Below, piece by piece: positions 3,201 to 27,200 of a DNA stretch of 64,000 bases. Source of the stretch: Callorhinchus milii (Eukaryota); contig NW_024704742.1 in the NCBI RefSeq assembly GCF_018977255.1, forward strand, positions 32,428,001-32,492,000. The letters are read 5' to 3'. Under the pieces are notes generated by a model, which saw nothing but the letters and a program-made list of their open reading frames with translations, ran no database searches and was not told the DNA's origin. A program made the position numbers and the translations under genes. The first letter of the stretch is position 1. The number at the start of each line of letters is the position of its first letter.

Positions 3201-6200
3201 ATTGGCCTGCAGAGAGGCAAGAAGCTGCTGGTTAAACTCCGCACCTCCAATTGGTGGAACCATCACTCAATGGGAAGAGATGTGTGCCTGAGCTGCGGAC
3301 AGGAAGACGGTAGCAATGCTTTCCCACATTACATGCTGAGATGCGTCGCCCACCAGGAAGCTCGCAGGGAATTCCTTGTACTAGTGAGGACTCAAACCTG
3401 CTCACACTATTGACTATCTTCCTTGGGCAGGGTGGGTCTTCCTGGAGCTGAACTGGCTCCAAAGTGACATACTTGGCGATGGAATGTCAGAATCCAGCCA
3501 TCCTTCTTTTGCGGTCTTGGTAGTCCGGTTCGTAAGACAGCAGTATTCCGTGGTACTGCTAAACCCAGCCCAGCCTGGCTCATCGGCAGGATCTGGAAGG
3601 GCAGACCAGTCATTGGGGGCAGGGAGTCATCCCACTCAGCCCTTGTTAACCCTGAAAGCCAAAGCCCCAATGGGAAGGGTGGTCCTATCTGGACAAGCAG
3701 TGGGAAAGCTTGCTGGACAGCAATATCAATAGCATGCTATGTGGTTTAGCTGTTTAGACTCCAGCAGTACCCAACGCACACTTTGGGATCCCCAAGCCTT
3801 GGCTCTTGCCAACCTGCTCCTAATACTTTCCGAAATTAGTTAAGGTAAGCAGGATGCGTCCGTCAAGGGAGAGAATGTGCATTCCATTCCAACAATCTAT
3901 CTCTGGGATTTCCATGTGTAGGTGGGAGGCATGGAACTCTGTTTGGTTTGGATACTCTTAAGCATGGTGATGAGTTTTCGCATTGTGTCAGACACCTGGC
4001 TGACAAAAACATTTATATAAAAAAAATTGTAGGAAGTAGTAGGTTAGTGTGTTAATCATCTATAATAAAGGAGGAGAACAAGATATTTGCATCTTGGTTA
4101 ACAGCTTCCTCGGGTAAGTAGAAATTTCCCAATTACAATCCACATGACTCCATTCAGCTTTGCCGCACCTGAACTCATTACAGAAAGAATTGATTGCATT
4201 GCAACATCTCTGACCCTGGGAGACGTAATTTGAATGCATATCTTCATGAGTACTGGAAGTGTCTGTTCAGTGACATACCTTGGGAATGATTCTTGTCTTC
4301 AAGTTAGGCTTATTAAAAATTGGCTCCAAGTCACTGCACATTACAGTGTATCCTGTGAAGCACTTTGGCTATCCACCTGTGAAAGGTGCTCTACCAAAAG
4401 TAAGGATTGATGTTTGGATACAGTAGTGTGTCAGAATCCTCGTGTCGATGAGAAGGTCAAACACTGCTGGTTTCCCACAGCCTAACCCAGGAGCTGAGGC
4501 CAGTGAGATTCTCTGATTGTTGATATGTTTATCAGTTTTGGCAGGAGAGGGCACATTCTTCTCTTCTGGGCTTCACTGGTGATTTTTATTCTCCTCCGGT
4601 TAGTAAAGAGAGTGTGGTTTTTATAATTGGGGTTTCTGACCAATGCAGAAAAGATGGTTTGTATCTTCCAAGATCAGTAAACTAAAAGATTCACCCATTA
4701 GGTCTTCCAGCAGTGCATAATAAAACACAATGCTGATGAGCCAGGGTTTCTACTGCTGATCAGTATCCAGTGACCTCTTGCTGAAAAGTTTGTGTGGACA
4801 TTGGGTGAGCATTGTTTCCAATATTCTTTATGGTCAAAGAACCAACTAGTCCTTATAGTCTGGGCTCACACATAAATAATGGTTATTTGAATTGCAGTCG
4901 TGGAACTTACTTCGTCATTTTAGCAGAGGGTTGGGGAAAAATAACCACAACTGAAAAGAACGAGAACTGAAATCTATGAATTATTGCATTCATTTATACA
5001 TGTTATATCCTATTAATGTACAACATGTTTACTGAGGTAGAGTGGACACAGGAAAATTAACATGCAGAATAATTCAGTAGAAACAATTCTTGTAATTACT
5101 GATTTTTTAAAAGGTACATTTTTGTATGTAGCATCAGGTGTTTATAATCTGGCATTTTTGCATTTTGGACACTAAAATAATTTTATTGGAAGATAATGTC
5201 ATCATTTCATCTTCAATTCTTGTTTGTTCCTCATTGTAAAGCTGGAAAGATGGTCTTGCCTTCTGCGCACTCATCCACAGACATCGACCTGACCTTATTG
5301 ACTTCTCCAAGCTACAAAAGGTCATCTGTCTGATTGGTAGCATGCCAATGTGCAGTAGCTTGTGCTTTTTGTTTTTGCATGATCTGAGGGAAGTGGTGGC
5401 TTTTATTAACATGAGGCCTCAATGCTGCATGTAATTACCATACCAAGCTTACTACCAAAGGTTCTTGAAAGAATGTCCATTTACAAATTCTTGTTAATAA
5501 ATGAGATTTGTAAATCTTACATGTTTTTCACAATCCATTAATATTGATGATACTACTATTTTTATTTATATATATATATATATGTATATAACCAAATGCT
5601 GTGCACATAGAAGCATCTTTTGAGATGATTTTGAATTCTCTCTGGTTCTGGCTCTCTGTATTTTAGATCCTATGCTAGAGAAGGCCTGATAGGCTGAATG
5701 GCATTATATTTTATTTGCAACATGGAATTGTTGCTAAAATATAAACTTTTGTTTTCCTGATGCCAGAAGCTTTGTACGTTGAATTTAATGAAACAAAGCA
5801 GTCAAAATCCATGGAGTTTCTATCAAAATTTTAATTTAAACTCGAACATTTAATCATTTATTCAACAATTACTTCCAACCAACAGTCGGCAAAAAACAAT
5901 ATTCTTGCCTCAAACATTATATTTGGTCACCATTCTGTGACTAGAATATTGTTTGGTATATCTGAATTTTATACTTGAATCGTGTCAATATGGATACAGT
6001 ATAGCAATATTGCTTAAAAAAAAAGTATAATTACTGATTTAATCTCAAATCCAAATCTTAAAAGGTTATTAAATTGAAATTCACTCACTTTTGCTCCTGC
6101 GATTTACACAAACTTACATTAAAATAAATATTGTTATTGATAAAGATGTTAATTTCCCCCTCTTTCATTTCCTGGTCCTTTTTCGTATTCTTTTTATATC

Positions 6201-24200: not shown

Positions 24201-27200
24201 AGTGATGTGGTGCCTAGTTTTATTGCAGAAGGGAGTTTTTGGAGTCACTTATTGTTAAGCAGGAGGTATGACAACCAAGCCTGAGTCTGACCTAATTTGA
24301 AATCCATGAATGCACATCTTCAAGCAGGAATCTCAACTCTAAGCACATTGACTATTTGTGTAAATATTAGTTTAAAAATAATGGCAATATTCATAATCAC
24401 GACAATATCTACAACATTTTTGTTAGCTACCATCAATGGCAATTATAAAATCAGGGTTTATATCACCCAGGAGAATAAGGCCTAGGTGAGAATGTAACTG
24501 AAATCATAAATGAACACCAGCATCTTTTGTGCTCCACTATCCTTGTAGACTTGAGAATGAAGCCTGTGTTATAGCACAGTCCTTGCTAATGTGAGTGTCC
24601 TTAACATAACAAATAAAACATGTCAGGAGCTATGGTTCAGAGGTCTTGTAACAGATACAGCGTTTTTAATTGAAAGAATGGCAAGTCATCGAGGTGAAGT
24701 GAATTTATATTGTGATGTGTTGCAGCAACAATGTTATAATTTTCCCCTCTCCTGTTTTCGGTAGCACATCCGGGTTGGCTGGGAATTGCTCCTTACTACG
24801 ATTGCTCGAACAATGAATGAGATTGAGACCCAGATTCTGACCAGAGATGCTAAAGGAATCACCCAGGAACAGATGAATGAGTTCCGAGCTTCATTTAACC
24901 ATTTTGACAGGGTACAGTGCTCCGTTTATCCATTTCAGTGTCTTATTAATGGATGCCAAATGTTGATTTACAATAAGATGTTGTGGTGGATCTGTGTGAC
25001 ATGGAGCTCTTGACAGCTGCACAATTGACTGGTCTTGTAGCTTGGTGTAGTATTGAGCTCCAGATAACTGCACCATAAAATCGTATAGCACAGGCTTTCA
25101 TTTCTGATGTATTGCACACTATGTTCTTGGTTACTGTCAGGCACCAGGCTTTTTCTCTGTTAGGGAGTGATGAAAAGTCAGAGATATTCGCCTAGAATTA
25201 GGCTGTAGTGCATTTTGTGAGATATAGTTTGCAAGAAGTGATTAGGGGTGCAGATTGACTGCCCACTTAATCAAATAGGACATGGTACAAGGAGATTAAA
25301 ACATGGAGCAAACTTACCATAAACCACCTAAAATATAATTGTAGAAGGTTATTCAGTTTCAAATTGTATCAAGAGCAAAATATGCATTTTGGGGGGATTT
25401 TTATTTTGTAAAGATTAAATGGGACACGTAAACAGGCCATTGGAGTATTCTGGGAATAGCATTTCACATAAAACATTTTTTAAAGGTATGACTTTGTAAT
25501 TTGGTCTAAAGTTTATTGACCAGAATGTGAGGAACCATCTAAGTCTGTTTCGGCGAGAACATGTAAGATTATTTATGAGTGATTTTGTAGTTTTCAAGGA
25601 GTCTACTGTTTGTTTGATTCAGTTGCACTAAGTATAAGCACGCTTAACTAAACTCACTGAAATTGAACGCTGACCATTAAATTATTGCACGACCAACCAG
25701 TATGTTCTGATTCTTTTCTTCTAGTTTCATTAAATCCTCTAACCCCAGGTTCTTTTCGCTGCTGAATGTCGGATGCTATTCCTGCTGCAACATGGCACAT
25801 CAGATGTTCGTCATTCACTGGTTTACTATTCCTCAGTGTATTTGCCCCTTTGGCCCATTTGATCTCAGTACCAAATTTCTACCCCACCATCCTCCCATTA
25901 CAGCAACAAGACGTTTCTGAAATGAGTCAGTTTCTTGTTCTTTACCACTTTTCTTGCTAAGCAGTTACAGCTGTTAATCGCCCTTCATGTAAAGAAAGAT
26001 TTCCTTCTTACCAAATAAATGCATTAATGGAGCACTTGTCTCGCAAATGAGAGACTTGGGTTCGATTCCCAGCAGGGCAAAATGTTGGGCAAGTTTCCTT
26101 ACTCCACGTGCCTCTGTTTACCTAGCAGTAAGAAGTAACTTGGTTGTTAGTGGATTGGAGGAACACTTTCCCGGGGGTAATAATTTTTTTTAAAAAAAAT
26201 TTGGTTACTTCAATCCACGACTGTTTGCAATTGGCTGTTGCATTTCGCCCACAAAATATACAGTCAATTCACTTTACAGTATATACGGTGAAGCGCTTTG
26301 AGACATCTCGAAGATGTGCTAAGATGCTATGTCAAATGTAAGGATTATTATTATTAAACACTTAACTTTTAGCATGGAACTTACCATTCATTAATTGAGT
26401 ACTTTGTAATTTTTCTCATCTTTCTTTAGTTCGGGATAGATGCTGTATAAGTGTATGTGCCCATTGCATGCTGTAACTAATGTGTGTGTGATACTAGGAT
26501 GAATCTGGCATTCTGCGACCAGAGGAATTCAAAGCTTGCCTCATCAGCCTTGGTCATGTTGGAAATGATCAGCAGGTACTAACCAAACTGTGATGTTTAT
26601 TTTCTACATACAAGTAAAAAGGTGCTAAACTTGTTTCTTTTTTTTCCTTTCTCAACCTCTGTGTTTTCCTGTCTTTGTTGATATTCTTTTTGGTCTTTGC
26701 TTCGCATTTGTGCCCTGGTTGTTCCTTTCCTGTTTGATTTGTTTGTGTGTCAGTGACTCCCTTCCTGCTTCTCACCTGCCCTGAATTTGGAATTGCTGTA
26801 TCCTCGGACTCTGAATGACCTTTTGACTCTTTCCGATATGCTGCCTCTTCACCCATTGCACCATGGGCTCCCGATCTGTCTGCTGGAAATCCCTCAATCC
26901 TCCACCTGTTCCTTTACTTGCTGATCTACTCAATAGAAGAAAAATAAGGCAATGGAGCCAGATGACCTCCGAGCTTGTCTCATCTCCATGGGCTTTGATC
27001 TGGTATGATAGATGCAAGTTTAATAATTCTGATGTTACAACTGTCAGGATTGGAGGTCTAATTTTGCAACACAAATTCATTGTCACTTCTAGTTACAAAC
27101 AAAAGTTATTTATTTTGTGTTAATTCACAAAACAGTTACTTGCAAAATCCAAATACTGACAATATGCAGTGAAAAATATCCAGAAAGCTGGTGGTTTGGT

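What the first reader, a model, noticed from the sequence alone, without database searches (positions are those of the whole stretch)
5242..27002. Three-switch combinatorial actinin: possible coordinated muscle/non-muscle program from one gene
Seen: three independent duplicated-exon pairs (6, 8, 19) give at least 8 in-frame isoforms, varying the actin-binding CH2 region twice and the EF hand once. In the antiparallel dimer the EF-hand domain of one chain lies next to the actin-binding domain and neck of the other. Inference: the choices may be coupled, for example 6-upstream + 8-downstream + 19-SM in muscle and 6-downstream + 19-NM elsewhere. The shared upstream TGCATG on the 6-downstream and 19-NM exons is consistent with this. 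The locus would then preserve the ancestral gene whose exons were later partitioned among ACTN1-4.
Basis: inference. Interest (0 to 1): 0.7.

Follow-up and report, generated by a model that had tools for sequence, protein, structure and literature searches.

The report
Elephant shark ACTN2, three exon pairs
The elephant shark's muscle alpha-actinin-2 gene keeps three pairs of interchangeable exons; two pairs are long known, and the third, also present in birds and turtles but not seen in mammals, may explain why human ACTN2 has an exon that is skipped to switch the gene off.

Summary
The three exon pairs (6a/6b, 8a/8b, 19NM/19SM) are real, intact and old. The gene is Callorhinchus milii ACTN2: 15 of 15 constitutive exons tested are identical to public models, and MTR lies downstream. 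It is one of the four vertebrate paralogs, not the pre-duplication gene. Public kiwi and emu ACTN2 models show all six exons too. All six are already in public C. milii models. The exon 8 and 19 pairs, and their closeness in the dimer, are in print; this scan noted an exon 8 pair before in a shark/ray ACTN1. The less familiar part is 6b: found in models of 12 species (chimaera, arowana, birds, turtles), in 0 of 75 mammal and 0 of 45 shark/ray models, and not found in print in my searches. RBFOX motifs sit downstream of 6a and on the acceptors of 6b and 19NM. Human ACTN2 exon 6 (6a type) is RBFOX2-dependent and its skipping triggers decay, so it may be the leftover of this pair. Coupling is unproven: the muscle form 6a-8b-SM fits, but 6a also goes with 8a and NM, and 0 of 11 C. 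milii models join 6b with NM.

The parts
112..29836 (+). ACTN2 coding exons 3-21 (exons 1-2 upstream of the window); stop codon at 29834-29836
   Evidence: 15 of 15 constitutive exons tested (4, 5, 7, 9-18, 20, 21) are exact substrings of C. milii ACTN2 UniProt A0A4W3IUV0 and RefSeq XP_007892087.1; the exon 3 test was in the wrong frame, its translation matches by eye
5242..5320 (+). exon 6a (CH2), canonical ACTN2 type; weak donor AAG|GTCATC
   Evidence: Pfam CH positions 31-55; in 10 of 11 C. milii models; best PDB scores to ACTN3, ACTN2, ACTN1
5340..5431 (+). GCATG (5340) and two TGCATG (5376, 5426) downstream of 6a: RBFOX enhancer position (inferred)
6274..6343 (+). two TGCATG (6274, 6335) upstream of 6b, the second inside the acceptor; pyrimidine-poor acceptor, AG-free zone 117 nt: RBFOX silencer position (inferred)
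6344..6422 (+). exon 6b (CH2), second copy; Cys replaced by Ser, last six residues net -1 against +2 in 6a
   Evidence: in 1 of 11 C. milii models (A0A4W3IUV0); like exons in bird, turtle and arowana ACTN2 models; no direct RNA row obtained here
7904..7985 (+). exon 7, constitutive, 82 nt, between the two CH2 switches
8236..8321 (+). exon 8a (TARPD type; upstream copy, same order as in human ACTN2)
   Evidence: contig ends in run X2 fit splicing 8a to exon 9
8817..8902 (+). exon 8b (TPKPD type, canonical muscle form)
   Evidence: contig end in run X2 fits a spliced junction into this acceptor
26465..26497 (+). TGCATG (-33), ACTAAT (-22, branch-point or QKI-like) and GT repeats before 19NM
26498..26575 (+). 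exon 19NM (19a type, 26 aa, completes a near-canonical EF-hand 1 loop)
   Evidence: in 5 of 11 C. milii models and in shark, ray, gar, bowfin, sturgeon, bichir, eel, bird, turtle and gharial ACTN2 models
26576..26936 (+). 361-nt intron with a branch-point-like GCTAAAC about 50 nt from the 19NM donor and a 300-nt tract of 72% pyrimidines; AG-free zone 183 nt
   Evidence: likeness to the distant branch point of mammalian ACTN1 is recalled, not tested
26937..27002 (+). exon 19SM (19b type, 22 aa, muscle form)
38618..63350 (+). MTR (methionine synthase) exons, neighbouring gene on the same strand; runs on past the window
   Evidence: Pfam S-methyl_trans, Pterin_bind, B12-binding_2 above their cut-offs on three exons; ORF list

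Best explanation
This is elephant shark ACTN2 in the exon-rich state that non-mammalian ACTN2 genes still have. Each of three tandem exon pairs swaps a short homologous segment: two in CH2 of the actin-binding domain, one in EF-hand 1 (shown). Pairs 6 and 8 are kept one-or-the-other by frame: both or neither gives an early stop (shown), presumably followed by decay (inferred). Pair 19 is leaky: both exons together stay in frame and are modelled in many species (shown in models). Choice is most likely set by tissue splicing factors acting on each pair separately, not by one molecular switch: RBFOX proteins would promote the weak 6a from downstream and block the acceptors of 6b and 19NM, so RBFOX-rich cells (striated muscle, neurons) make 6a and 19SM; exon 8 follows another regulator, giving 6a-8b-SM in muscle, 6a-8a forms outside muscle, and 6b as a minor exon that rides with 8a (inferred). 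Mammals lost 6b and 19NM; the same RBFOX logic on the surviving 6a then yields skipping and decay instead of a second protein, as reported for human ACTN2 exon 6 (inferred link).
For: Identity and orthology: (none of the best 120 of 4379 hits is named ACTN1, 3 or 4). Selection on both copies. Spread of 6b: 15 of 311 ACTN2 models, 12 species, plus an unnamed 218-aa genomic ORF with a teleost-like 6a followed by a second copy (P0001). All six exons in six Apteryx rowi RefSeq isoforms, where 8b occurs only as 6a-8b-SM and 6b only with 8a. 9 of 9 NCBI isoform models with 6b carry 8a. Motif placement. Human ACTN2 exon 6 needs RBFOX2 bound downstream and RBM24, skipped form unstable (bioRxiv 10.1101/2025.10.28.685214, passages); human exon 8a/8b depends on QKI (PMC7782589, passages). 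Spliced contigs: run X5 record 18 bridges exons 10-12 and has 402 nt upstream of exon 10 = 93+86+82+79+62, one exon 8 and one exon 6; run X2 contig ends fit 8a-to-9 splicing and a junction into 8b, by the same rule that holds at the exon 15 donor and exon 16 acceptor.
Against: No direct RNA row for 6b or for either exon 19 was obtained; 6b use in C. milii rests on one Ensembl-type UniProt model, which joins it to 8b and SM, against the proposed 6b-8a link. 6 of 15 models with 6b carry 8b (all UniProt or GenBank genome predictions). The 6b-8a link is not significant: 46 of 59 6a models in the same biased set also carry 8a, Fisher p 0.19, rows not independent. 0 of 37 shark/ray models with an exon 6 use 6b. 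6b sequences do not form one clade in the free tree (0% of bootstrap trees), though one clade is not rejected (p-AU 0.35). Motifs are not binding data; no ACTAAY lies within 200 nt of 8a or 8b here. Tissues of the runs are unknown.
Confidence: 0.62

Rival explanations
1. One reading: the three choices are coupled on each molecule into two forms, 6a-8b-SM (muscle) and 6b-8a-NM (elsewhere).
For: The muscle form exists as predicted. 6b-8a-NM is modelled in kiwi and emu. 6b and 19NM share an upstream TGCATG.
Against: 6a-8a-NM, 6a-8a-SM, 6a-8b-NM, 6b-8a-SM and NM+SM forms are all modelled; 0 of 11 C. milii models are 6b with NM; exon 8 lacks the motif. Models built from short reads cannot phase exon 19 with 6 or 8 (about 1.6 kb apart in the mRNA), so this is weak evidence either way.
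Confidence: 0.12
2. 6b is vestigial in the elephant shark: intact but hardly spliced in, on its way to the loss seen in sharks, rays and mammals; the gene works as a two-switch ACTN2.
For: 1 of 11 C. milii models and neither of the 2 RefSeq models seen uses 6b; 0 of 45 shark/ray models; poor acceptor, 45% pyrimidines; chimaera and teleost 6b are more diverged than 6a.
Against: Open frame, GT-AG ends, saturated silent sites with dN 0.13 against 6a; kept for a long time in several lineages.
Confidence: 0.2
3. Exon 6 was duplicated more than once in ACTN2 (chimaera, teleost, sauropsid copies independent), and the likeness to ACTN4 is convergence on a common CH2 type.
For: Free tree needs 3 changes for the 6b label; beta-spectrin scores as high with 6b (39.6 bits) as ACTN4 (39.3); several invertebrate-like hits have the same Asp.
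Against: Same exon, same gene; 8 of 9 6b rows replace the Cys by Ser or Asn while 11 of 11 6a rows keep it; saturated silent sites mean an old event; one origin not rejected.
Confidence: 0.2
4. The locus is the undivided ancestral actinin gene from before ACTN1-4 separated.
For: It holds every exon type found across the four paralogs.
Against: 83-87% identity to ACTN2 against 73% to ACTN4; named ACTN2 in RefSeq and UniProt; MTR downstream as at human ACTN2 (human synteny recalled); birds have the same set.
Confidence: 0.02

Closest known systems
ACTN2/ACTN4 exon 8a/8b mutually exclusive homologous exons (Abascal, Tress & Valencia 2015, PMC4494069, passages and one supplementary table; Martinez Gomez 2021, PMC8373072, supplementary rows)
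   Same: Same exon, 86 nt, same order (TARPD type upstream of TPKPD type as in human ACTN2); bilaterian age; products near the exon 19 products in the dimer.
   Different: Nothing of substance. Those catalogues list four human actinin events (ACTN1 exon 19, ACTN2 exon 8, ACTN4 exons 8 and 19) and no exon 6 event.
Exon 19a/19b (NM/SM) EF-hand switch of ACTN1 and ACTN4 (Murphy & Young 2015, PMC4550062, passages); chick skeletal-muscle actinin gene with two EF-hand isoforms (Parr et al. 1992; title seen in a reference list; content recalled)
   Same: NM exon upstream of a 66-nt SM exon, long pyrimidine-rich intron, in-frame double inclusion.
   Different: Here in ACTN2, which in mammals has only 19b (0 of 75 mammal models with NM). 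The NM exon is 26 aa, not 27; Ca2+ sensitivity untested.
Human ACTN2 exon 6, RBFOX2/RBM24-dependent cassette whose skipping leads to decay (bioRxiv 10.1101/2025.10.28.685214, passages)
   Same: Same exon (6a type), frame-shifting when skipped, RBFOX sites in the proximal downstream intron.
   Different: In the chimaera a second intact copy (6b) follows with RBFOX motifs on its acceptor, so skipping 6a can give a second protein rather than a dead message.
Public gene models of bird and turtle ACTN2 (e.g. Apteryx rowi XP_025940854.1, Dromaius XP_025964736.1)
   Same: Three pairs, including a second exon 6 with Asn/Ser for Cys and an acidic end.
   Different: Automatic annotations; genomic order of their two exon 6 copies was not seen here.

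Membership tests
ACTN2 orthologs | closest to ACTN2 among the paralogs | tested here: met
   83-87% to four named ACTN2, 73% to two teleost ACTN4; best 120 of 4379 hits include none named ACTN1, 3 or 4. Full-length ACTN1 and ACTN3 were not compared; exon 14 alone scored slightly higher to chicken ACTN1 than to ACTN2.
ACTN2 orthologs | MTR as downstream neighbour | tested here: met
   Pfam; the human arrangement is recalled
pre-duplication (single) vertebrate actinin | equidistant from ACTN1-4 | tested here: not met
   (ACTN2 against ACTN4 only)
mutually exclusive homologous exons: pair 6 | tandem homologous exons, same length and phase, intact splice sites, purifying selection | tested here: met
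mutually exclusive homologous exons: pair 6 | both copies used in transcripts, one at a time | tested here: inconclusive
   one exon 6 per contig in X5; no model of 311 holds two; 6b in NCBI isoform models of birds and turtles; no direct 6b junction seen in C. milii
mutually exclusive homologous exons: pair 8 | both copies used, one at a time | tested here: met
   contig ends in X2 and length arithmetic in X5 (indirect); models; frame
mutually exclusive homologous exons: pair 19 | strictly one at a time | tested here: not met
   double inclusion is in frame and modelled in 35 of 311 rows, C. milii A0A4W3IYV0 among them; it behaves as a leaky pair
Ca2+-sensitive (19a) actinin isoform | Ca2+ lowers actin cross-linking | not testable with these tools
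   loop resembles human ACTN1 19a with Arg at loop position 9
RBFOX-regulated exons | TGCATG downstream of the promoted exon and upstream of the repressed exon | tested here: met
   for 6a, 6b, 19NM; not for 8a, 8b, 19SM
RBFOX-regulated exons | binding and response to RBFOX level | not testable with these tools
   reported for human ACTN2 exon 6 only
coupled (phased) splicing programme | non-random association of distant choices on single molecules | tested here: inconclusive
   no long reads were offered; model tally 9/0 against 46/13, p 0.19

The most novel reading that the evidence does not exclude
Exon 6 is a third ancient actinin switch, duplicated before ACTN1-4 separated: ACTN4 kept the 6b type, ACTN1 and ACTN3 the 6a type, and ACTN2 both, under RBFOX control shared with exon 19. 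When mammals lost 6b, a protein switch turned into an off-switch: the RBFOX2/RBM24-dependent skipping and decay of human ACTN2 exon 6 is the remnant of that pair. Chicken or turtle cells would let one test this directly.
Probability: 0.25. Interest if true: 0.6.

Novelty: new variant of a known kind. Interest (0 to 1): 0.36.

Why it matters
Actinin exon switching is a textbook case with two pairs. A third pair in CH2 of ACTN2, kept from chimaera to birds, adds an unstudied isoform with a more acidic CH2 surface, and offers an evolutionary origin for the regulated skipping of human ACTN2 exon 6 that matters in heart-muscle differentiation. It would be a clean example of a mutually exclusive pair decaying into a poison cassette. 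The rest (pairs 8 and 19, closeness in the dimer, partition among paralogs) is known, and all six exons are already in public gene models.

Tried and rejected
No whole genome is held for the window, so C. milii ACTN1, 3 and 4 could not be inspected for a second exon 6. Sequencing runs: no RNA holder listed on record; 13 runs listed, 8 guessed RNA among the holders, all contigs, no raw or long reads. Four of them were laid on 5150-25149; the tables were swamped by SINE/LINE contigs, exon joints were among the rows not shown, X1 and X6 had no cover over exons 6-9, and exon 19 lay outside the 20-kb stretch; depth bins were not used to rank exons. The exon 6 tree (26 rows, 26 columns) is mostly unresolved; neither 6b alone (p-AU 0.35) nor 6b with teleost ACTN4 (0.39) is rejected or shown as a clade; ACTN1, ACTN3, lamprey and amphioxus rows were not available. 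Teleost YAKL/YSKL variation in exon 6 was first suspected to be the 6a/6b pair; it is variation within 6a. Lek et al. 2010 (gene structure and splicing of actinins) is not held and may describe the exon 6 pair. Ten paper searches showed no listing on a duplicated ACTN exon 6; most hits were judged from listing and abstract start only. PMC11680404 and PMC9770155 (passages) had nothing on it. Supplementary file 1 of PMC4494069 was not searchable and bioRxiv supplements were not seen. No fold or complex was predicted: the arrangement is a solved textbook dimer. Earlier scan notes by place gave nothing.
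Full report
Observation. I read the window and translated candidate exons. The region holds exons 3-21 of an alpha-actinin on the + strand, stop codon at 29834-29836. Three exons are present twice: 6a 5242-5320 and 6b 6344-6422 (79 nt each), 8a 8236-8321 and 8b 8817-8902 (86 nt each), 19NM 26498-26575 (78 nt) and 19SM 26937-27002 (66 nt), all with GT-AG ends. A tblastn of the whole protein shows no other duplicated exon. 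The copies are old and constrained: 6a/6b differ at 25 of 79 bases, 17.5 synonymous and 7.5 non-synonymous, silent sites saturated; 8a/8b give dS 2.2, dN 0.13; flanking introns are unrelated. Of 64 include/skip combinations 16 are open: exactly one exon 6, exactly one exon 8, and NM, SM, both or neither at 19.

Identity. Exon 6b matched a Callorhinchus milii 'Actinin alpha 2' at 100%. 15 of 15 constitutive exons tested are exact substrings of that protein and of RefSeq XP_007892087.1. The protein is 83-87% identical to human, kiwi, gar and sevengill-shark ACTN2 and 73% to two teleost ACTN4; none of the best 120 of 4379 full-length hits is named ACTN1, 3 or 4. The next gene is methionine synthase (three Pfam domains above cut-off), the neighbour of human ACTN2 (recalled). 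One exon (14) taken alone scored slightly higher to chicken ACTN1 (90.3 bits) than to ACTN2 (87.2), and full-length ACTN1 and ACTN3 were not compared. The gene is ACTN2, not an undivided ancestor.

Already annotated. The 11 C. milii models retrieved use all six exons: 6a-8b-SM four times (RefSeq, V9KAC5 and two others), 6a-8a-NM three times, and once each 6a-8a-NM+SM, 6a-8a-SM, 6a-8b-NM (truncated) and 6b-8b-SM. None joins 6b to NM. V9KAC5 differs from the window at one residue (K575R), the same change (19836 A>G) seen in contigs of runs X2 and X5, which suggests that it comes from RNA (inferred).

Spread. Among 311 ACTN2 models gathered from three searches and their clusters (a biased set of cluster representatives and members), 15 carry a second type of exon 6: C. 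milii, Asian arowana, two kiwis, emu, crane, two quails, a goose and three turtles, 12 species. An unnamed genomic ORF has a teleost-like 6a followed by a second copy one codon short, like the arowana one. 0 of 75 mammal models have 6b or NM; 0 of 45 shark/ray models have 6b, and 8 of these 45 start downstream of exon 6, as expected if the frame breaks upstream (cause not seen). 8a/8b and NM/SM occur in ACTN2 of sharks, rays, gar, bowfin, sturgeon, bichir, eels and birds. Apteryx rowi has six RefSeq isoforms covering all six exons. So three switches is a feature of non-mammalian ACTN2, not a chimaera relic. In 6b the Cys is replaced by Ser or Asn in 8 of 9 rows and the last six residues are less basic (-2 to +1 against +2 to +3 in 11 of 11 6a rows).

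RNA. Only contigs were available. Four runs were laid on 5150-25149; repeats filled most tables. Run X5 record 18 bridges exons 10-12, so it is spliced, and has 402 nt before exon 10, which is one exon 9, one 8, one 7, one 6 and 62 nt of exon 5. In run X2 an intron contig spans 8293-8844. With 31-letter words its start fits a branch at the 8a donor towards an exon that begins with G (exon 9), and its end fits a second path entering the 8b acceptor; record 13 begins with 29 nt of an exon 8 before exon 9, the same branch. The same arithmetic holds at the exon 15 donor and the exon 16 acceptor (records 14, 16). This is indirect support that both exon 8 copies are used. Nothing shown decides 6a against 6b, and exon 19 was outside the stretch.

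Mechanism. Frame and early stops keep pairs 6 and 8 exclusive (shown; decay inferred). Pair 19 has a long pyrimidine tract and a branch-point-like site about 50 nt from the NM donor, like mammalian ACTN1 (recalled), yet double inclusion is in frame and modelled in 35 of 311 rows. TGCATG lies at +56 and +106 after 6a, at -70 and -9 before 6b and at -33 before 19NM; none lies within 200 nt of 8a, 8b or 19SM. By the usual RBFOX position rule (established knowledge) this favours 6a and SM where RBFOX is high and leaves exon 8 to another factor; human 8a/8b depends on QKI (PMC7782589, passages). Human ACTN2 exon 6 needs RBFOX2 bound downstream and RBM24, and its skipped form is unstable (bioRxiv 10.1101/2025.10.28.685214, passages). 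That exon is the 6a type. I infer that mammalian skipping is what remains after loss of 6b.

Coupling. The predicted muscle form is right. The predicted other form, 6b with NM, is modelled in kiwi and emu but so are 6b-8a-SM, 6a-8a-NM and 6a-8b-NM. In 70 NCBI isoform models of birds and reptiles 6b goes with 8a 9 times of 9, but 6a does so 46 times of 59 (2 rows with both exon 8 left out), p 0.19; the 6 genome-prediction models with 6b all carry 8b. Shared tissue regulation of 6 and 19 is plausible; coupling on single molecules is untested.

Partition among paralogs. Published for exons 8 and 19: human ACTN4 has both pairs, ACTN1 and ACTN2 one each, ACTN3 none, and the two products are close in the dimer (PMC4494069, passages; PMC4550062, passages). 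For exon 6, 6a scores 43.8, 43.0, 42.8 bits to ACTN3, 2, 1 and 37.4 to ACTN4; 6b scores 39.3 to ACTN4 and 34-36 to the others, but 39.6 to beta-spectrin. The tree is unresolved. The idea stays open.

Prior description. A chick skeletal-muscle actinin gene with two EF-hand isoforms was published in 1992 (title in a reference list; paper not seen). The human catalogue lists four actinin events, none at exon 6 (PMC8373072, supplementary rows). Ten searches gave no listing on a duplicated actinin exon 6, but Lek et al. 2010 could not be read and most subscription papers are not held. Earlier notes of this scan report an 8a/8b pair in a shark/ray ACTN1 and an 88-nt pair in urchin actinin; I did not test them.

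Verdict. Observation confirmed; interpretation partly supported. Two of three switches are known, all are in public models, the gene is ACTN2. The exon 6 pair and its link to the human off-switch are the part worth following. Interest 0.36; new variant of a known kind.

Noticed in passing
window 55856-56083 and 57772-57999: 228-nt inverted repeat, 99% complementary, 1688 nt apart, in MTR introns on either side of the exon near 56226-56370; could pair in the pre-mRNA (skipping or circle), or be a young element or assembly feature.
   Followed up: partly
window 32893-36283: 3.4-kb minisatellite, 27-28-nt unit, about 126 copies, right after a GC-rich stretch (about 32400-32900) that probably is the MTR promoter region.
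   Followed up: partly
window 31810-32295: 28-nt tandem array, 17 copies, inside a retroelement-like end that resembles the stretch near 3560-3720 in ACTN2 intron 5 (by eye).
   Followed up: no
window about 2000-3900: Decayed non-LTR retrotransposon-like insertion in ACTN2 intron 5, GC 0.51; many SINE and LINE pieces in other introns dominate laid contigs.
   Followed up: no
proteins P0264, P0265, P0269, P0272, P0277, P0280, P0281, P0291: 8 of 45 shark/ray ACTN2 models start at a Met in exon 7, 8 or 9, hinting at frame-breaking splice forms upstream, such as exon 6 skipping as in human.
   Followed up: partly
window 26476-26481 and 26578-26583: ACTAAY (QKI-like) motifs on both sides of 19NM, one overlapping the likely branch point, one overlapping the donor.
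   Followed up: no
protein P0001: Unnamed 218-aa ORF from a 1.6-kb ENA contig reads through two tandem exon-6 copies of a teleost-like actn2.
   Followed up: partly
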